A stretch of 25,501 bases of DNA, taken from a virus (Duplodnaviria; Caudoviricetes). A program made the position numbers and the translations under genes. The stretch's first letter is position 1. Every line of letters starts with the position of its first letter. Shown here piece after piece: positions 7,823-15,862 of this stretch. The stretch covers positions 1 to 25,501 of IMG/VR virus record IMGVR_UViG_3300032335_000803, one strand, 5' to 3'. The notes below the pieces were generated by a model. It worked only from the letters and a program-made list of their open reading frames with translations. It was not told where the DNA came from and did no database searches.

Positions 7823-8734
7823 TCACCCAGCCGGCCGGTTGATGTCGGGCAGGTAGCCCAGGTTTGACTCCCGTCCGGTGATGTCCTCATCGTAATAGTG
7901 ATCCTCGGCCATCTGTTCGCTGCTGTGCCCCAGCTGCTTCTTGGCTGAGATCCCAGCCTTTTTCAGGTAACTGGCCGTTGCCTTGCGAATCGAATGAAAA
8001 GGGTGGTACGGGACGCCTGCCGACCGGCACAGAACCCTGAGGCTGGGGTAAATCGACAACGCCTGGCGATCATCAAGCCAGGGCCACACACGCTCGCCAG
8101 GAGCCCCTCGCTGCGTGGCTAGGCACTTGGCTAGGGCGGGCGTGATCTCCCGTGTAATCGTCTCCCTGTGGCCTTTGCGGGTGGCCGCCAAGAACGTCAG
8201 GGTGTGCCGCTCCAGATCCACCTGCTCCCAGCGGAGCTCGAGCACCGCACCGATACGCTCGCCCGTTTGAAACATCGCCTGAATTTTGGTGGTCCAGTAC
8301 CAGGCGGCGGGCTTGCCGCAGATGTAGCCCCTGCGGTGGCGGGCAGCCTCGACCAGCTTGGCGAGCTCGGCAGCGTTGAACGCTTTGGGCACCGGTTTGG
8401 GCACCCTCGGCCTGGCGTAATCGGGGAACTCCAGCAGTTCGCCGTCTGACCGCTTCCAGCGTTTTCTGGCCAGCCAGGTCCACAGGCTCCGCAGGTGGGC
8501 GGAATCCTTGGCTAGGCTGGCCGGCGAGATCAGGCCACGCTTGATGTCGTGGACTGTGGTGCTACGCCACCGGATGAACTTGGCGGCCGTAAGGTCTTCT
8601 AGATCGTCCACGGTTGGCTCGTGGCCGAGGAAGTCTCGGAACCTGTCGAGCGTGCTCAGGTACATCGACACCGACCTGTCGCTCAGGTTCTTCAGCGGCG
8701 CGACACGGTCAATCAGCAGTTCTCTCAGAGTCAT
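7823..8734 (-). CDS. int: Tyrosine recombinase / phage integrase
   Basis: Catalytic set present: TGERIGAV (R), TRKG (K), FHSIRK (HxxR), LGHS (H), DHYY (Y). N-terminal core-binding domain. Probable ATG at 8734. Confidence 0.92.
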   Translation of the reverse strand: MTLRELLIDRVAPLKNLSDRSVSMYLSTLDRFRDFLGHEPTVDDLEDLTAAKFIRWRSTTVHDIKRGLISPASLAKDSAHLRSLWTWLARKRWKRSDGELLEFPDYARPRVPKPVPKAFNAAELAKLVEAARHRRGYICGKPAAWYWTTKIQAMFQTGERIGAVLELRWEQVDLERHTLTFLAATRKGHRETITREITPALAKCLATQRGAPGERVWPWLDDRQALSIYPSLRVLCRSAGVPYHPFHSIRKATASYLKKAGISAKKQLGHSSEQMAEDHYYDEDITGRESNLGYLPDINRPAG

Positions 8735-8776
8735 AGCCAGCCCCTTTTTTGCCAACGTCTGCGGTCACAGGTTTTC

Positions 8777-8844
8777 AGTGTACGAAGTGTACAACTGTAC
8801 CCCATCCGCTAAAAAGATCGGCATGAAAGTAGTGTACGCAGTTT
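8777..8844. repeat. Cluster of (A/T)GTAC-core repeats upstream of int (operator or attP arm sites)
   Basis: AGTGTAC 8777-8783, AGTGTAC 8786-8792, ACTGTAC 8794-8800, AGTGTAC 8831-8837. TGTACGCAGTTT 8833-8844 recurs exactly at 9774-9785. Confidence 0.6.
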
Positions 8845-8875
8845 CTAGTATGCGGGACAAGGCGAGGATGCCGAT

Positions 8876-8903
8876 TTGACTAAGTACCAGATAGCGTTAG
8901 CAT
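8876..8903 (+). promoter_or_regulatory. Sigma70-type promoter, probably giving a leaderless transcript of the HTH gene
   Basis: TTGACT-16 nt-TAGCAT. The ATG at 8911 lies 7 nt past the -10 box, with no RBS. Confidence 0.55.
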
Positions 8904-8910
8904 CCAACGG

Positions 8911-9183
8911 ATGGTTGCCATGACACCGCAGGAACTCGACAGTGGCGAATACCTCACGGTTCTTGAGGCCGTAGAGCTCATGGGCTGCTCTGAAGCGTGG
9001 GTTCGCACGCTCTTGGGCCGTGGCCTGCTGCCCGGTTCTAGGCGGATTGGCCAGCGTGTCTGGCTGATCCCAAAGACCGCCGCCACAGAAGCCAAGGACG
9101 GCTTGAGCACCAGGGCGACCGGCAAGCGGCACCTCGCCAAGCGTCCCGCCGCCAAGCGTAAAAAGGCGAAGCGGAAGAAGTAG
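8911..9183 (+). CDS. Excisionase-type (HTH_17/MerR-like) DNA-binding protein with a basic tail
   Basis: YLTVLEAVELMGCSEAWVRTLLGRGLLPGSRRIGQRVWLIP is an Xis-type winged HTH. Divergent from int; K/R-rich C-terminus. Confidence 0.8.
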   Translation: MVAMTPQELDSGEYLTVLEAVELMGCSEAWVRTLLGRGLLPGSRRIGQRVWLIPKTAATEAKDGLSTRATGKRHLAKRPAAKRKKAKRKK

Positions 9184-9203
9184 CGTTTCCCCGCTGGAAA
9201 CGC
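9183..9203. terminator. Perfect 8-bp hairpin after the HTH gene
   Basis: GCGTTTCC-CCGCT-GGAAACGC. No clear U-tract on the + strand. Confidence 0.45.
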
Positions 9204-9229
9204 ACCACAAAAAATCTTTCCTCTCCCCC

Positions 9230-9258
9230 TTGACGCCTAAGTGACGATAGCCTAAACT
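9230..9258 (+). promoter_or_regulatory. Sigma70-type promoter with an operator-like repeat in the spacer
   Basis: TTGACG-17 nt-TAAACT. The spacer contains AAGTGACGATAGCC. Confidence 0.7.
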
Positions 9259-9309
9259 ACACCCATGCGAGCGAATGAGACTCGCAAGTCAAAAACTGGA
9301 AACGAAACG

Positions 9310-9480
9310 ATGAACGCTCTGATTAGCAACGACCGTGTGGTGGCCATCGAGGTTCGCGGCGAGACTCGCTACTTCATCTCGATGGGCCGCCCCGGATTCA
9401 ATCTTCCCGCGAACAACCGAAAGGGCTACGCCACGGCCAAGGCGGCCGAGGCCGCTAGCCTCCGCTGTGAGCGGGCCTGA
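9310..9480 (+). CDS. Small hypothetical early protein
   Basis: MNALISNDRVVAIEVRGETRYFISMGRPGFN... The start could instead be the ATG at 9265. Confidence 0.6.
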   Translation: MNALISNDRVVAIEVRGETRYFISMGRPGFNLPANNRKGYATAKAAEAASLRCERA

Positions 9481-9556
9481 GACACCACAAGGTGGGGCCA
9501 CCCGGCCTGCCGACAGCTGCGAAACGGGTGGCAATCGCACACAGGATTCTCAGGCC
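9474..9556 (+). ncRNA. Candidate three-way-junction RNA element
   Basis: P1 GGCCTGAGA/TCTCAGGCC encloses CACC-ACAA-GGTG and GCCACCCG/CGGGTGGC stems. It ends immediately before an AAGGAGG RBS. Confidence 0.4.
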
Positions 9557-9571
9557 AAGGAGGGCCACGCT

Positions 9572-9715
9572 ATGAAACGCAACTGGAACGCTGCCCTGCA
9601 ATCGCTCGTTCTCGTCCGCCTGGGCCAGGAGCTCGGGTGCGACTCGCCGGCTACTCGAGCCCTGCACGACCTGCTGGACCTTCTCGCCAGCGTGGCCGGC
9701 ATACTTGCAAAGTGA
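9572..9715 (+). CDS. Small hypothetical protein (47 aa)
   Basis: AAGGAGG RBS then MKRNWNAALQSLVLVRLGQELGCDSP... Confidence 0.6.
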   Translation: MKRNWNAALQSLVLVRLGQELGCDSPATRALHDLLDLLASVAGILAK

Positions 9716-9753
9716 CCAACTGACGCTACCCTTACGCCGAAGTGACGGTAGCC
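9705..9753 (+). promoter_or_regulatory. Possible promoter with two operator-like repeats
   Basis: TTGCAA-16-TACCCT. AACTGACGCTACC (9718-9730) and AAGTGACGGTAGCC (9740-9753) match the 9239-9252 motif. Confidence 0.45.
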
Positions 9754-9815
9754 ACACCCAGGAACACGACTCATGTACGCAGTTTTCAATCCCCTCATTT
9801 TGTTGGCTTGCTCGG

Positions 9816-9845
9816 TTGACTCTGGACTATACGGCTGTACACTAC
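9816..9845 (+). promoter_or_regulatory. Sigma70-type early promoter overlapped by a GTAC-core site
   Basis: TTGACT-16-TACACT. ATAC-GGCT-GTAC (9829-9840) overlaps the -10 box. GTACACTAC is the reverse complement of 8829-8837. Confidence 0.55.
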
Positions 9846-9868
9846 CGCACCACACGAAAGGAAATCGC

Positions 9869-10096
9869 ATGACCACGACTGACCCGCACAACAACGAGTA
9901 CCTCGCAGCCATCGCCAACCTGCACGAGCAGACGCAGAGCCCCGCACCCCGCACCTTCGCTGTTGGCGACTTCGTCAGCGGCATTAGCGGCGGCAAGCGT
10001 TGGAGCGGCCGGATTTTCGCCCTCGACGGTGACCGGCTCAGCATCGAGATGCCAGGGGCATGGCTTTCGGTATCGGCCAAGGACATCACGCACTGA
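9869..10096 (+). CDS. Small hypothetical protein with an SH3/KOW-like C-terminus
   Basis: GAAAGGA RBS, ATG at 9869. FAVGDFV...WSGRI...LSIE...WLSVSAKDI is a beta-barrel-like pattern. Confidence 0.7.
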   Translation: MTTTDPHNNEYLAAIANLHEQTQSPAPRTFAVGDFVSGISGGKRWSGRIFALDGDRLSIEMPGAWLSVSAKDITH

Positions 10097-10233
10097 ACAA
10101 GGGACCGCCAACGGCAGGACGCCGTGAAGCGGAAGGAATGGGCGGAGCCCCGTAAGCAAGGACGCACGAACCACCCGCCGAGCAGGACGCAGAGCGGGCT
10201 TTCCAGATTCCAGAACCACGAAAGGAACTCGAC
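10097..10233 (+). ncRNA. Candidate CsrB/RsmZ-like GGA-repeat RNA, or CsrA-binding leader
   Basis: Eight GGA motifs in ~130 nt of non-coding sequence, several in hairpin loops (ACGGC-AGGAC-GCCGT, GGGC-GGA-GCCC). GCA(A)GGACGC occurs three times. Confidence 0.5.
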
Positions 10234-11079
10234 ATGAGCACAGAAATCAGCACTAGAGCCGCTGGCGGATTGGCCCTGGCGACATTCGATGACGCCTTCC
10301 GGTTTGCCAAGATGGTGAGCCAGTCGGACTTCGCCCCCAAAGACTTTAGGGGCAAGCCGGAGAGCTGCTTGTTGGCCATCCAGCACGGCTCGGAGGTGGG
10401 CCTGAGCCCCATGCAGTCGCTCCAGTCGATTGCCTGCATTAACGGGCGGCCGAGCGTCTGGGGCGACGCGGCCCTGGCTCTCGTCATTGGCTCGCCCGTC
10501 TGCGAGTACGTGCGGGAGACGGTGGATGGCGAAGGCGAAGCCATGGTCGCCACGTGCGAAGCCAAGCGACGTGGCTACGAAAAGGCCAGCGTCGTGCGGT
10601 TCAGCGTGGCCGACGCCAAGAAAGCCGGGCTGTGGGGCAAGCAAGGCCCGTGGGTCCAGTACAGCCGGAGAATGCTCCAGATGCGGGCGAGGGGCTTCGC
10701 TCTGCGAGATGCGTTTCCTGACGTTCTGCGTGGCCTCGTCACGGCCGAGGAGGCCCAGGACTACCCGCAGGGCGAACCCGCCAAACCAACGGCCAGGGAG
10801 CCCGTGGTAATCGGACCAGCCGCACCGGCACTCACGCTGAGCGTGAGCAAGGATGACCCGATGACCAAGGCTCGGCACGCCGTGCAACTGGCCAAGAGCG
10901 TGCCCGAGCTCAACAAGCTGCGGTCTCTCGTTCAGAAGAGACGCAACGAGGGGACGTTCAGCGAGGAGCAACACCACGAGTTGGTCGAGCTCATGATCGG
11001 CAAGGCGGAGTTGCTGCCCGACGATGACACGGGCCTGGCGTTTGAGCACGAAGCCGCCGAGCACGAGGTGACGGCATGA
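10234..11079 (+). CDS. RecT-like single-strand annealing recombinase
   Basis: GLSPMQSLQSIACINGRPSVWG and LWGKQGPWVQYSRRMLQMRARGFALRDAFPDVLRGL..EE are typical of phage RecT-like annealases. AAAGGA RBS. Confidence 0.75.
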   Translation: MSTEISTRAAGGLALATFDDAFRFAKMVSQSDFAPKDFRGKPESCLLAIQHGSEVGLSPMQSLQSIACINGRPSVWGDAALALVIGSPVCEYVRETVDGEGEAMVATCEAKRRGYEKASVVRFSVADAKKAGLWGKQGPWVQYSRRMLQMRARGFALRDAFPDVLRGLVTAEEAQDYPQGEPAKPTAREPVVIGPAAPALTLSVSKDDPMTKARHAVQLAKSVPELNKLRSLVQKRRNEGTFSEEQHHELVELMIGKAELLPDDDTGLAFEHEAAEHEVTA

Positions 11080-11312
11080 GCCCGGCCGCGTGGATCAGCG
11101 AGCGTCGCTATCGGCTGCTGGATCTGGTGCGTCACCAGTGGGGCGAGGACTCAGCGGAGCAGCTGCGTTACGCCATCGATGACTACCTCAGAACCGCTCC
11201 AGAAAACGCTGAACTTGTGCTGAAGGTCAGGGCGTTGTCGGCACGGCTGCGTGAGCTTGACCCGCCACCACCCGTGTGTCGTGACTTTGGCGTGAGATTC
11301 ACAGGAGATTGA
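11076..11312 (+). CDS. Hypothetical protein
   Basis: ATGA overlap and GAGGT RBS; 78 aa. Confidence 0.6.
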   Translation: MSPAAWISERRYRLLDLVRHQWGEDSAEQLRYAIDDYLRTAPENAELVLKVRALSARLRELDPPPPVCRDFGVRFTGD

Positions 11313-11319
11313 CCAACAC

Positions 11320-11449
11320 ACGCTGGGCTCGCAGCGTCAACCGGCGATTAGCCGGCGAGCAGCCACCGCACTCAAGAGGCGTCGTATCAGTGCAGTTGAG
11401 GCCGGTATCCGTTGTCGGTGACTTGACCGTACGCCACACGTCACGTGGC
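11320..11449 (+). ncRNA. Candidate multi-hairpin intergenic RNA
   Basis: Five consecutive stem-loops in a ~160-nt intergenic gap (detailed in findings). Confidence 0.35.
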
Positions 11450-11470
11450 ACATACACAAGGAGGTGAAAG

Positions 11471-11608
11471 ATGCCATCAGGAAAGCCAGCCGACGCCCTT
11501 CGCATAGCGGAGCTGCTACGGCAGGGACTCACCCAGACGCAAGTCGCTCTGCGGCTCGGAGTCTCCAAGTCGGTGGTCAACCGGATCGCCAAAGAGGTGG
11601 CGGCATGA
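11471..11608 (+). CDS. Small HTH DNA-binding protein (45 aa)
   Basis: AAGGAGGT RBS; MPSGKPADALRIAELLRQGLTQTQVALRLGVSKSVVNRIAKEVAA*. Not in the ORF track. Confidence 0.75.
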   Translation: MPSGKPADALRIAELLRQGLTQTQVALRLGVSKSVVNRIAKEVAA

Positions 11609-13304: not shown

Positions 13305-14139
13305 TATCAAACCCGCGTTCTTCAAGAACGAGTTCCTTGCTGAGTGCGAGCCCATGGCCCGCCTTCTGTTCGTAGGGCTCTGGACCCTGGCCGACCGTAA
13401 TGGCCGGCTGGAGTACCGCCCGTTGCGGATCAAGGCGGAGCTGTTCCCGTACGAGAACTGCGACATGGCCGCCATGCTTAAGCAGCTGGAGGACCGTGGC
13501 TTCGTTCGTGCCTACGAAGTCCAGGGGGTGCGGGTGCTCGAGATTCCCAAGTTCTGCGACCATCAGCGGTGCCACCCGGACGAGCGTGCCGAACAACTTC
13601 CCCCGTGTGAAGATGGGCAAGCCGGACTTTCCGGCGCACCAGCCGGGAAATTTCCCGGCTCCTCCGAATCTGCGGCGCACGAGCCGGGAAATTTCCCGTC
13701 GAATTGCGCCTCTTATCCTTCTTCCTTTAATCCTTCTACCTCTAGTCCTTCGGTAGCCACGAGCGAGCCGCCGAAGCGGCGGACACGCTCCCGGCCCGAT
13801 GCCGCCATCTCGTGGACTGCTGACGCAGGGTGGCAGGGGATCACCGAGGCCGACCGCCAGGAGTGGCGTCTGGCGTACCCAGCGTGCGACCTAGCGGGCG
13901 AACTGGCTCGGGCCACGTCGTGGCTAAGGGCAAACCCCACCAAGGCTCACAAGTCCAACTGGCGGAAGTTTGTGGTTGGCTGGCTAACCCGGTCGCAGGA
14001 CCGTGGTGGCACGAACCGGACGCCAGGCGTGAGGCCAGACGAGAAGCCGCCACCCAAGGCGTTCGCTGGCCGAGACGCTGAACGATTCGCCGCAACGCTT
14101 GCCAAGGCTGTGACACTCACCGAGGAGGATTTGAGATGA
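13288..14139 (+). CDS. Phage replication initiator (replisome organiser-type)
   Basis: MARARSIKPAFFKNE...ARLLFVGLWTLADRNGR N-terminal winged helix, low-complexity linker containing iterons, C-terminal NW.KF...WL.R. GAGGAGG RBS. Confidence 0.75.
   Translation: MARARSIKPAFFKNEFLAECEPMARLLFVGLWTLADRNGRLEYRPLRIKAELFPYENCDMAAMLKQLEDRGFVRAYEVQGVRVLEIPKFCDHQRCHPDERAEQLPPCEDGQAGLSGAPAGKFPGSSESAAHEPGNFPSNCASYPSSFNPSTSSPSVATSEPPKRRTRSRPDAAISWTADAGWQGITEADRQEWRLAYPACDLAGELARATSWLRANPTKAHKSNWRKFVVGWLTRSQDRGGTNRTPGVRPDEKPPPKAFAGRDAERFAATLAKAVTLTEEDLR
13620..13751. repeat. Putative replication origin: palindromic iterons plus a pyrimidine-rich tract
   Basis: CGGCGCAC(C/G)AGCCGGGAAATTTCCCG at 13632-13657 and 13673-13698. 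Perfect 20-bp palindrome at 13641-13660. TCCTTC-rich tract at 13708-13751. Confidence 0.65.
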
Positions 14140-14360
14140 CCCTAGACGCAGACCCGAAACCGTTGACCGCACGCCAGGCGGAGGTGCTCGCCTTCATCCG
14201 AGCGAACATGGCGTACTACTCGCCCACTGTGCGGCAGATCGCCGTGGAGATGGGCATCAAAAATCACAACGCGGTGTTCCACCACTTGAATGCCCTGGAG
14301 AAGAAGGGTGCGATCCGCCGCATCGCTGGCAAGTCCCGCAACATCGAGGTGATTGCATGA
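14136..14360 (+). CDS. Stand-alone LexA-type DNA-binding domain (no peptidase domain)
   Basis: LTARQAEVLAFI...YSPTVRQIA..MGI...NAVFHHLNALEKKGAIRR..GKSRNIEV matches the LexA N-terminal domain. The ORF stops before any Ala-Gly cleavage site or S24 domain. Confidence 0.85.
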   Translation: MTLDADPKPLTARQAEVLAFIRANMAYYSPTVRQIAVEMGIKNHNAVFHHLNALEKKGAIRRIAGKSRNIEVIA

Positions 14361-14632: not shown

Positions 14633-14880
14633 CGCTCACCGATTTTGTCTGGATCGCAGTTGGCGAAACACTTCTCGCGGCCACGTTTGGCCTTGGGATT
14701 TTGGTGGGGATTTCAATCACGAAAAGGATTTCAAATGACAACCGCAACGAAAGAAAGACGCCGGACAGCTACTGGCACAACGCTGACCACGCAAACGCTT
14801 CGAGCCGCCCTGGCGGTAGTGCTGCGGGCGGTGCCGACACGGGGCACCAAGCCAATCATGCAAAACGTCCGACTCGGTGA
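14629..14880 (+). CDS. Small single-pass membrane protein overlapping the dnaN-like gene
   Basis: ATGA-coupled start, hydrophobic N-terminus (FVWIAVGETLLAATFGLGILVGISI). The 3' 146 nt overlap the next gene. Confidence 0.45.
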   Translation: MTLTDFVWIAVGETLLAATFGLGILVGISITKRISNDNRNERKTPDSYWHNADHANASSRPGGSAAGGADTGHQANHAKRPTR

Positions 14881-15862
14881 CGGCCTGCTGACGGGATCTG
14901 ACCTTGAGGTTCGCATTGACCGCGAGATCGAATATCACGGCGAGCCCATGCTGTTGCCGGCCCATAGGCTCTCGGCCATCCTGCGTGCCGCCACGGGCGA
15001 CGAGGTGTACCTGACCGCCAAGGATGCCACCGTCACGGTTCGCTGCGGTGCGGGCTCGTGGACGCTGCCCACTGAGGACGTTGCCGAGTACCCGCACTGG
15101 GAGCCTGAGGATCTGAAGGCCTTGTGTCGTCTGCCGGCGGACCAGTTCGGGCGTGCCGCCAAGGCCACGACGTACGCCGCAGACAGCGAGTCGAGTCGTT
15201 ACGCCCTGGGTGGCGTGCTGTTGGACGTGACGCCGACCGACGATGGCTCGATGCAAAAATGGGTGGCCACTGACGGCCGCCGCCTGGCGTGCGTGGAGAC
15301 TGAGTCCGACCAGGCGGTGGACGCCTCGCAGACCATCGTGCCTGGTCGGCTCATGTCTGCCGTTGCGAGCCTGGCCATGGGTGACGGCTCTGTGCAGATC
15401 GAGGCCAACGCCAAAGAGATCCGATTTACCCTGGACGGCTGCACCGTCACGGGCCGGCTGTTGGAAGGACGCTTCCCTCGGTGGCGTGACGTTGTGGGCG
15501 AGCCGGAGGGTGAGCCATCGGTGATCGACTGCGTGGAGTTGCTCCAGGCCGTCAACGCTGCGGCCATCGTCACCAGTGAGCAGTCGAAGGGCGTCACTCT
15601 GGATTGGACCAGCGGCACGCTGGTGCTGGCTGGCCGCTCGAGCGAGTACGGCGAGAGCCTTTGCCACTGCCCGACGATTGCGGCCGGCACGACGGCGAGC
15701 ACCAGGCTGGATCCGCAGTACATGGCCCAGTTCTTGTCGCACCTGCCGGCGGACGAAGAGCCGCACGTCGATGTGTACGTCAAGGACGCTCAGAGCCGTG
15801 TACTGCTGCGTTGCGGCACCTACACGGGCGTCATCATGCCACTCGCAGCGGATGGTGGCTGA
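14735..15862 (+). CDS. dnaN: DNA polymerase III beta sliding clamp homolog
   Basis: 375 aa. GSDLEV, SRYALGGVLL, VATDGRRLA, GRLLEGRFPRWRDVV and terminal VIMPL are DnaN hallmarks. AAAGGA RBS before the ATG at 14735. Confidence 0.9.
   Translation: MTTATKERRRTATGTTLTTQTLRAALAVVLRAVPTRGTKPIMQNVRLGDGLLTGSDLEVRIDREIEYHGEPMLLPAHRLSAILRAATGDEVYLTAKDATVTVRCGAGSWTLPTEDVAEYPHWEPEDLKALCRLPADQFGRAAKATTYAADSESSRYALGGVLLDVTPTDDGSMQKWVATDGRRLACVETESDQAVDASQTIVPGRLMSAVASLAMGDGSVQIEANAKEIRFTLDGCTVTGRLLEGRFPRWRDVVGEPEGEPSVIDCVELLQAVNAAAIVTSEQSKGVTLDWTSGTLVLAGRSSEYGESLCHCPTIAAGTTASTRLDPQYMAQFLSHLPADEEPHVDVYVKDAQSRVLLRCGTYTGVIMPLAADGG

What the first reader, a model, noticed from the sequence alone, without database searches (positions are those of the whole stretch)
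10097..10233. Phage-encoded CsrB/RsmZ-like GGA-hairpin array (candidate CsrA sponge)
Seen: a 137-nt non-coding gap in an otherwise tightly packed operon has GGA at 10102, 10117, 10131, 10135, 10144, 10160, 10185 and 10224. GCAGGACGC occurs at 10114-10122 and 10182-10190, and GCAAGGACGC at 10156-10165. GGA is displayed in loops (ACGGC-AGGAC-GCCGT; GGGC-GGA-GCCC; CCCGC...GCAGGACGC...GCGGG followed by CTTT). The last GGA is in the RBS of the RecT-like gene. Known: CsrA/RsmA binds ANGGA in hairpin loops and is titrated by CsrB/RsmY/RsmZ sRNAs built from such repeats. Inference: an early phage RNA that sequesters host CsrA to reprogram translation, or a CsrA-gated leader tying lytic recombination and replication to host carbon status. 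No csrA gene is visible in the window. I am not aware of this being described for such phages.
Basis: partly seen in the sequence, partly recalled or inferred. Interest (0 to 1): 0.8.

Follow-up and report, generated by a model that had tools for sequence, protein, structure and literature searches.

The report
Phage GGA-hairpin RNA, likely CsrA sponge
A group of temperate phages keeps a folded non-coding stretch that shows the GGA motif in its hairpin loops and linkers; it likely acts as an RNA that soaks up the host's global translation repressor CsrA, in a host that is probably a planctomycete, which would be an undescribed way for a phage to take over host gene control.

Summary
Alone, the eight GGAs are marginal (shuffle p=0.056; fold z≈0). 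But 75 of 80 phage loci fetched by RecT homology carry the element (four-hairpin or three-hairpin form), with strongly covarying stems, GGA in loops and linkers, and a short U-tract after the last hairpin. It is non-coding, has no Rfam match, and sits at a fixed place in the early operon between a small Tudor/SH3-fold gene and the recombination gene; genes can be inserted on either side. No carrier phage searched encodes CsrA (0 of 54 records). The host is probably a planctomycete (integrase relatives; such genomes hold 7-9 csrA matches), but this is inferred. Two loops match RsmZ-type A(N)GGAX sites; against the reading, one is a non-canonical GGA triloop and the last loop loses GGA in 23 of 97 copies. 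Best reading: a phage-made CsrA sponge built like RsmW, possibly doubling as a leaky terminator. Binding and transcript are untested. The scan had not noted this element; it has noted similar chromosomal candidates in planctomycetes.

The parts
9816..9843 (+). Predicted sigma-70-type promoter (TTGACT, 16 nt, TACACT) that would drive the small gene and the array
   Evidence: one of 3 sites in 8700-11500; shuffles mean 0.5; a TTG-led hexamer and a TACACT-like hexamer are visible by eye at the same place in most of the 45 upstream regions printed (not counted)
9869..10096 (+). 75-aa gene, N-terminal helix plus Tudor/SH3/KOW-like beta-barrel; the array starts at its stop codon
   Evidence: conserved family; model, pLDDT 81; Tudor domains, best E=0.011, none <=0.001; uL24/Spt5 KOW, E>=0.11; no CsrA likeness (68, 87)
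10097..10104 (+). 5' single-stranded linker with GGA (10102)
   Evidence: (G9, A11 of alignment A1 >=90% conserved)
10105..10132 (+). Hairpin 1: outer stem 10105-10108/10129-10132, inner stem 10111-10115/10121-10125, AGGAC pentaloop (GGA triloop in many relatives); absent in the short form
   Evidence: pair probabilities 0.95-1.0; covariation; loop types
10133..10139 (+). Linker with AAGGA (GGA 10135)
   Evidence: invariant A41 G42 G43 A44 in 42 of 42 rows of A1
10140..10150 (+). Hairpin 2: GGA triloop on a stem whose pairs all covary
   Evidence: 6 of 6 pairs change on both sides; present in 59 of 60 distinct RecT-anchored elements; 8-15 parsimony switches per pair
10156..10165 (+). Hairpin 3: 2-bp GC/GC stem with ANGGAX hexaloop (AAGGAC), N variable
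   Evidence: pairs invariant, so no covariation support; pair probability 0.53
10174..10202 (+). Hairpin 4 (outer 10174-10178/10194-10198, inner 10182-10183/10189-10190, AGGAC loop) followed by three U (10200-10202): predicted weak intrinsic terminator carrying a GGA loop
   Evidence: U-run >=3 in 84 of 97, >=4 in 65, 6 in 3; mean -11.9 kcal/mol; T fraction 0.46 in the tail vs 0.06 in the array; not called by the terminator scan, which needs 5 T
10201..10215 (+). TTC-N4-TTC-N2-GAA repeat in the variable spacer, not part of the GGA array; possible DNA operator
   Evidence: also before ribosome-binding sites about 3 kb away in L008, L045, L052, L059
10222..10226 (+). Shine-Dalgarno (AAGGA) of the recT-like gene
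10234..11079 (+). RecT-like single-strand annealing protein gene (281 aa), the usual but not constant downstream gene
   Evidence: Pfam PF03837 E=1.4e-7; PHROG 561 E=2.3e-50

Best explanation
The gap is a conserved, covarying multi-hairpin element that shows GGA in its loops and linkers at a fixed place in the early operon of temperate phages in which no csrA was found, and it likely works as an RNA that binds and titrates the CsrA proteins of a host that is probably a planctomycete. Shown: anatomy, covariation, non-coding state, position, no csrA hit in carriers. Inferred: transcription from the predicted promoter at 9816-9843 through the 75-aa gene; part of the transcripts would stop at hairpin 4 plus its short U-tract (about 350 nt, perhaps trimmed to about 105 nt as with RsmW), the rest would read through into recT and the replication genes, so every early transcript carries about six sites, enough for up to three CsrA dimers. 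Sequestering CsrA would free GGA-containing ribosome-binding sites, which many early phage genes have, and shift host translation. Because the last hairpin is both a predicted terminator and a binding site, free CsrA may also tune read-through (most speculative step).
For: 75 of 80 RecT-anchored loci match the model (41 of them were in the training alignment; four of the five misses have under 500 nt upstream and the fifth, L023, shows the short form by eye). Covariation: 18 of 25 pairs change on both sides in 42 sequences, score 0.33 vs 0.13 shuffled and <=0.09 slid; 20 of 25 and 0.42 vs 0.12 in 96 model-fitted sequences. GGA kept in loops and in linkers while stems change, the layout of RsmZ (four stem-loops, linker sites, terminator, eight GGA, loops A(N)GGAX on C-G then U-A or G-C; passages of PMC4005645). 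In hairpin 3 only the N position varies freely (AAGGAC 54, AGGGAC 31, ACGGAC 9, other 3 of 97). Pentaloop and triloop forms replace each other at hairpin 1 and hairpin 4, so the GGA itself is what is kept. Gap length 92-175 nt in all three frames, antisense frame open in 5 of 42. Array displaced about 500 nt from recT by an inserted gene in L016, L036, L080, and from the Tudor gene in the L422 group. No csrA in own record, 49 or 5 carrier records (7 at least 90% complete) nor with a planctomycete CsrA profile. 8 of 9 mid-range integrase relatives in GTDB are Planctomycetota; 5 of 5 such genomes tested have 7-9 CsrA matches.
Against: Hairpin 2 (96 of 97 copies) and about two thirds of hairpin 1 copies present GGA as a triloop with no 5' A, unlike any loop in the RsmZ structures read. 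Hairpin 4 loses the first G in 23 of 97 copies (AUGAC, ACGAC and kin), although the cited paper says core bases cannot be substituted. The U-tract is short (6 U in only 3 of 97), so a discrete small RNA is uncertain. The host call rests on 29-33% identity; the three closest integrase hits (69-81%) lie on contigs of 3-5 kb in bins labelled Limnocylindrus, Micavibrio and Chitinophagales. No chromosomal homologue in 151 Pirellulales genomes. The G.U versus A.C strand test did not favour this strand (61 vs 76). The array is tightly linked to a phage Tudor/KOW-fold gene (66 of 89 distinct pattern hits), a fold that can bind nucleic acid.
Confidence: 0.57

Rival explanations
1. A cis-only CsrA switch: CsrA binds the array on the nascent early mRNA and controls termination at hairpin 4 or translation of the next gene, tying recombination and replication genes to host CsrA level, with no meaningful titration in trans.
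For: Always at the same place just ahead of the recombination module; no room for a promoter between U-tract and start codon, so recT must be reached by read-through; the terminator-like hairpin carries a GGA loop; in the window the UUCC-containing spacer is predicted to pair with the recT Shine-Dalgarno (unpaired probability 0.01-0.02). CsrA-promoted termination at pgaA is in print (PMC4052769, search listing and start of abstract only).
Against: Spacer length and sequence and the downstream gene vary; five to six sites lie upstream of the U-tract, far from the ribosome-binding site; no conserved alternative structure was seen.
Confidence: 0.18
2. The GGA loops are read by another protein, most simply the phage's own Tudor/SH3/KOW-fold protein encoded just upstream, forming a nut/put-like antitermination or autoregulatory module for the early operon.
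For: Gene and array are strongly linked; weak profile likeness to KOW domains of uL24 and Spt5 (E 0.11-0.17); triloop and ANGAX variants fit CsrA poorly; lambdoid antitermination sites lie ahead of recombination genes (recalled).
Against: The protein is very divergent (20-74% identity, 2 invariant columns in 37) while the loops are nearly fixed, which points to a conserved host reader; two genes separate them in the L422 group; best fold matches are Tudor domains without significance; linker plus loop layout and the free N of ANGGAX match the CsrA site.
Confidence: 0.14
3. A single-stranded DNA signal: GNA-triloop hairpins acting as a priming site, hairpin promoter or recombinase loading site next to recT.
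For: GC-GNA-GC triloops are known as very stable DNA mini-hairpins and as phage N4 promoter hairpins (both recalled, no call); strand test inconclusive.
Against: The loop is always GGA, never GAA/GCA/GTA; 37 of 97 are closed by T-A; triloop and AGGAC pentaloop interchange; with DNA energies hairpin 2 is not in the best fold of the + strand; the array begins at a stop codon and ends in a U-tract on the coding strand.
Confidence: 0.05
4. An mRNA stability or ribosome-decoy element (structured intercistronic spacer with Shine-Dalgarno-like repeats) with no specific protein reader.
For: The central linker is a perfect AAGGAG in most copies; structured intercistronic spacers are common.
Against: GGA held in 3-6 nt loops cannot pair well with 16S rRNA (inference); stability alone does not explain invariant loop letters on 2-bp stems.
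Confidence: 0.06

Closest known systems
RsmZ / RsmY / RsmX and CsrB / CsrC sponge RNAs of Gammaproteobacteria
   Same: About 105 nt, four stem-loops, GGA in loops and linkers, loops AGGAX and ANGGAX closed by C-G with G-C below (as RsmZ SL3), terminator-like end (passages of PMC4005645; section 6 of PMC7366521).
   Different: Phage-encoded; no Rfam match at E<=1; GGA triloops; a GGA loop on the terminator-like hairpin itself; short U-tract; embedded in an operon; probable host outside Gammaproteobacteria.
RsmW of Pseudomonas aeruginosa
   Same: GGA-rich RNA in the 3' UTR of a small hypothetical gene, seen as 400- and 120-base bands (abstract of PMC4950607); here about 350 and 105 nt are predicted.
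   Different: Chromosomal and shown to bind RsmA; its upstream gene is reported to resemble RsmA weakly, whereas the gene here is a Tudor/SH3-like barrel; no sequence match.
mRNA-borne CsrA antagonists: Salmonella fimAICDHF leader, Campylobacter flaA leader
   Same: CsrA sites carried on an mRNA titrate CsrA in trans (passages of PMC13501541, and PMC4894983), as read-through early transcripts would here.
   Different: Those are chromosomal 5' leaders; this is intercistronic, in a phage, with a terminator-like end.
Phage- and plasmid-borne csrA genes
   Same: Mobile elements interfering with the Csr network (30 of 2517 phage genomes carry csrA; passages of PMC7366521).
   Different: Those add the protein; this would remove it with an RNA, and carriers lack csrA.
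Unnamed candidate structured RNAs of Fremin et al. 2023 (PMC10690425)
   Same: Predicted from IMG/VR intergenic regions by covariation; DNAVirus_339 (58 nt, 91 sequences, 74 freshwater, once upstream of RecT) could overlap this element.
   Different: Could not be compared: alignments, diagrams and position file were too large to read. Main text has no CsrA or GGA, so no function of this kind is proposed there.

Membership tests
Csr/Rsm sponge RNAs (CsrB/C, RsmX/Y/Z/W) | Several GGA motifs displayed in hairpin loops and single-stranded linkers, kept in evolution | tested here: met
Csr/Rsm sponge RNAs (CsrB/C, RsmX/Y/Z/W) | Loops of the A(N)GGAX type on a C-G closing pair | tested here: inconclusive
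   Met for hairpin 3, for 74 of 97 hairpin 4 copies and for window hairpin 1; not met for hairpin 2 (triloop in 96 of 97) and 23 of 97 hairpin 4 copies (parser and pattern scans required A.GGA. and A.GA. loops); reference
Csr/Rsm sponge RNAs (CsrB/C, RsmX/Y/Z/W) | Match to an Rfam Csr/Rsm family model | tested here: not met
   0 matches at E<=1 in the whole window
Csr/Rsm sponge RNAs (CsrB/C, RsmX/Y/Z/W) | Non-coding | tested here: met
   gap lengths in all three frames, antisense frame open in 5 of 42
Csr/Rsm sponge RNAs (CsrB/C, RsmX/Y/Z/W) | Ends in an intrinsic terminator | tested here: inconclusive
   G+C hairpin (mean -11.9 kcal/mol) and T-rich tail conserved, but U-run mostly 3-5; not called
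Csr/Rsm sponge RNAs (CsrB/C, RsmX/Y/Z/W) | Accumulates as an abundant transcript | not testable with these tools
   no RNA holder listed
Csr/Rsm sponge RNAs (CsrB/C, RsmX/Y/Z/W) | Binds CsrA through GGA and relieves repression in trans | not testable with these tools
   needs binding and reporter assays
Csr/Rsm sponge RNAs (CsrB/C, RsmX/Y/Z/W) | Cell contains CsrA | tested here: inconclusive
   Planctomycete genomes with integrase relatives hold 7-9 CsrA matches, but the host itself is inferred
Csr/Rsm sponge RNAs (CsrB/C, RsmX/Y/Z) | Transcription driven by BarA-UvrY / GacS-GacA (not true of RsmV, RsmW) | not tested
   a sigma-70-type promoter is predicted instead
Phage antitermination RNAs (nut, put) | Suppresses downstream terminators through a phage protein or RNA polymerase | not testable with these tools
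   position fits; no Rfam match; family features recalled

The most novel reading that the evidence does not exclude
The first phage-encoded RNA sponge for CsrA, and a CsrA-antagonist RNA aimed at the 7-9 paralogues of Planctomycetota: it uses a new GGA-triloop site, doubles as a CsrA-sensing terminator that lets recombination and replication genes through only once host CsrA is titrated, and in some lineages is switched on and off by a poly-C promoter.
Probability: 0.3. Interest if true: 0.88.

Novelty: new variant of a known kind. Interest (0 to 1): 0.72.

Why it matters
CsrA-sponge RNAs are described in Gammaproteobacteria, and phages are reported to carry csrA genes, but my ten literature searches turned up no phage-made CsrA decoy RNA. 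If this is one, phages can disarm a global host translation regulator with RNA alone. It would also give the first handle on what planctomycete CsrA paralogues bind and how they are antagonised, with about a hundred natural variants (pentaloop, hexaloop, triloop, ANGAX) as a ready-made specificity test set.

Tried and rejected
Single-sequence statistics: marginal, not used as support. Rfam: no match. Coding explanation for the gap and the 504-aa antisense frame: rejected. Phage-encoded csrA: none. GTDB pattern scans: the first was too loose (about 4100 stretches); the second gave 24 stretches, and of 33 loci rescored none reached E<0.08; the best, L344, has no Rfam match at useful E. Model search of 151 Pirellulales genomes: one weak terminator-like hit without GGA. 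Triple-GGA pattern in 251 Planctomycetia genomes: 27 hits, 26 inside open frames of 163 codons or more and one a repeat array. Tudor-gene profile in 401 Planctomycetota genomes: no match, uninformative. mraZ region: the downstream spacer was inspected in only 1 of 3 loci and showed no comparable array. G.U versus A.C strand test: inconclusive; 50 of 76 A.C cells come from two poorly aligned hairpin-1 columns. RNA data: no RNA holder listed. Cultured phages: RecT relatives below 60% identity only. Homologue lists for integrase and sliding clamp gave almost no organism names. The wide profile search for the Tudor family did not return, so its range is unknown. Earlier scan notes by sequence and place: none. 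Weinberg 2017 (PMC5737381) main text: no CsrA, GGA or RecT.

Full report
Setting. The window is a 25.5-kb virus record, estimated 63% complete, of a temperate tailed phage: tape measure, integrase on the minus strand, excisionase-like gene, then a plus-strand early operon with a RecT-like gene, replication initiator, LexA-type DNA-binding gene, sliding clamp and RusA. The finding is the gap between a 75-aa gene (9869-10096) and recT (10234).

Observation. The stretch is the GGA-richest 137-nt window of the plus strand, but alone it is marginal: GGA p=0.056, AGGA p=0.011 against dinucleotide shuffles, folding z=0.05 and -0.12. No Rfam family matches anywhere in the window at E<=1.

Conservation. 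I fetched the best 80 of 119 viral stretches encoding RecT relatives, chosen by protein and not by the motif. A model built from the window and 41 of these loci matched 75 of 80: 56 long form (82-136 bits) and 19 short form lacking hairpin 1 (21-57 bits). Of the five misses, four have under 500 nt upstream of recT and one (L023) shows the short form by eye. Two DNA pattern scans added more copies: 119 loci shown of about 340 estimated stretches and 118, both including chance matches. A parser found 97 distinct long-form copies among the window and L001-L200.

Structure. On the plain MAFFT alignment of 42 distinct sequences, 18 of 25 named pairs change on both sides; covariation score 0.33 against 0.13 for shuffles and at most 0.09 for slid partners. 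On 96 model-fitted sequences it is 20 of 25 and 0.42 against 0.12 (fitted alignments lean to the model). All six pairs of hairpin 2 covary. A GGA triloop on at least four pairs is present in 59 of 60 distinct RecT-anchored elements, and its first four pairs switch type 15, 8, 10 and 14 times by parsimony on a RecT tree of 58 rows (quick tree of an unfinished search, L004 and L067 left out; phage mosaicism will inflate the counts). The 2-bp stems under the hairpin 3 and 4 loops never vary and so carry no covariation evidence. In the window transcript 9850-10240 hairpin 1 is firm (0.95-1.0) while hairpins 2-4 are at 0.36-0.55. The gap is non-coding: 92-175 nt, all three frames, antisense frame open in 5 of 42.

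Loop grammar. RsmZ has four stem-loops, linker sites, a terminator and eight GGA, with A(N)GGAX loops of 5-8 nt closed by C-G over U-A or G-C (passages of PMC4005645). Here hairpin 3 is GC-ANGGAX-GC with N free, hairpin 4 is GC-AGGAC-GC in 70 of 97, and the linkers carry AGGA (the parser and the first scan required loops of these shapes, but the same letters are invariant in the RecT-anchored alignment). Against a textbook site: hairpin 2 is a triloop (C-GGA-G 58, U-GGA-A 37, U-GGA-G 1, pentaloop 1) and hairpin 4 lacks the first G in 23 of 97. Distant CsrA homologues differ in tolerance to loop size and to a GGA-to-GAA change (passages of PMC13443453), so these forms are not excluded, but they are untested.

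Transcription unit. A sigma-70-type promoter is predicted at 9816-9843 and similar hexamers recur before the small gene in relatives (by eye). The array starts at that gene's stop codon and ends in a G+C hairpin (mean -11.9 kcal/mol) with a T-rich tail (0.46 vs 0.06 in the array; U-run >=3 in 84 of 97, >=4 in 65, 6 in 3): a weak terminator at best. recT has no room for its own promoter, so it must be reached by read-through (inference). The array is tied to neither neighbour: a gene is inserted before recT in L016, L036 and L080, an AAA-type protein replaces RecT in others, and two genes separate it from the Tudor gene in the L422 group. Among 89 distinct hits of the second scan, 66 have the Tudor gene within 480 nt upstream, 41 have recT downstream and 20 have neither. 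Several early genes of the window have AGGA-type ribosome-binding sites (9869, 10234, 11471, 12465, 14735), which host CsrA could repress (inference; no host baseline was computed).

Who reads it. No csrA was found in the window's record, in 49 or in 5 further carrier records (7 at least 90% complete), nor with a profile of ten planctomycete CsrAs. The upstream protein folds as a helix plus Tudor/SH3-like barrel (no match at E<=0.001) with weak KOW likeness; it is a possible reader, but it is far more variable than the loops. For the host, a scan of all GTDB genomes with the integrase gave 15 loci: three at 69-81% on 3-5 kb contigs in three unrelated bins (one carries the array; probably co-binned phage), nine at 29-33% of which eight are Planctomycetota including an isolate, and three marginal. 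All five planctomycete genomes tested have 7-9 CsrA matches. RecT relatives occur in 5 of 401 Pirellulales genomes; one has the Tudor gene, a single GGA-bearing hairpin with U-tract and recT in the same order (L376), another has a faintly CsrA-like gene (E=0.077) two genes ahead of recT and no array. So the host is probably, not certainly, a planctomycete. No chromosomal homologue of the array was found in 151 Pirellulales genomes.

Mechanism. I commit to a sponge (0.57): early transcripts, whether stopped at hairpin 4 or read through, each carry about six sites and would titrate host CsrA. The layout mirrors RsmW, cut from the 3' UTR of a small gene (abstract of PMC4950607; lead from an earlier scan note), and the mRNA-borne antagonists fimA and flaA (passages). 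Rivals: cis-only CsrA switch (0.18), another reader such as the phage Tudor protein (0.14), stability or ribosome decoy (0.06), ssDNA signal (0.05). Sponge and cis switch share the CsrA premise (0.75 together) and may both hold.

Novelty. Ten full-text searches (listings and abstract starts, with passages read for the papers cited) showed no phage-encoded CsrA decoy RNA and no GGA-triloop site; the library lacks most subscription journals. Phage-borne csrA genes are known. The element may be among the unnamed candidates of PMC10690425: DNAVirus_339 is plausible, but the alignments and position file could not be read. It is not a member of any Rfam Csr/Rsm family; it is built like one. Earlier scan notes list chromosomal GGA-hairpin candidates behind mraZ in planctomycetes; these are unchecked leads and I did not confirm them. 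Verdict: a real, conserved structured element, new variant of a known kind, interest 0.72.

Noticed in passing
L016:2291, L018:2074, L024:1441, L027:4597, L035:4842, L038:4799, L048:8, L061:45, L063:600, L065:4630, L073:4637, L075:3629; poly-G in L052:3466 and kin: Of 18 distinct C or G runs of 9 or more in the window and L001-L080, 17 lie within 322 nt upstream of the array, many as TTG-C(n)-...TACAxT, i.e. filling a promoter spacer (17 nt in L038 and L063): a likely phase-variable promoter for the Tudor gene or for the array alone. The window itself has none.
   Followed up: partly
window 10201-10215; L008:438, L045:2419, L052:281, L059:1718: A TTC-N4-TTC-N2-GAA repeat sits in the spacer before the recT ribosome-binding site in some carriers and before other genes about 3 kb away; possible operator for a phage regulator.
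   Followed up: partly
L375:1135-1386: A phage-like contig in a Pirellulales bin with RecT 69% identical has a divergent CsrA-like ORF (PF02599 E=0.077) two genes upstream of recT and no GGA array: related phages may use protein instead of RNA.
   Followed up: partly
window 9869-10096: Conserved stand-alone Tudor/SH3/KOW-like phage protein family with an N-terminal helix, first gene behind a conserved promoter; function unknown.
   Followed up: partly
window 9228-9252 and 9729-9753: A 25-nt direct repeat (84%), the first copy overlapping a predicted promoter; also TGTACGCAGTTT at 8833 and 9774: candidate operator sites in the immunity region.
   Followed up: no
window 14136-14360 and 14735-15862: Stand-alone LexA DNA-binding domain gene (E=1.6e-20) and a phage-encoded DNA polymerase III beta clamp with many close metagenomic relatives.
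   Followed up: no
window 13612-13788, minus strand: A second GGA-dense stretch (9 per 137 nt) on the minus strand, inside the replication initiator gene, where an origin might lie.
   Followed up: no
L344:4970-5059 (minus strand): A GGA-rich stretch in a bin labelled Rhodospirillales resembles the middle of the array weakly (15.5 bits, E=0.08), no Rfam match.
   Followed up: partly
PMC10690425 supplement, DNAVirus_1649: An unnamed 100-nt palindromic candidate RNA of mainly freshwater viruses lies upstream of csrA in 18 cases: freshwater phages with their own csrA and a structured leader exist.
   Followed up: no
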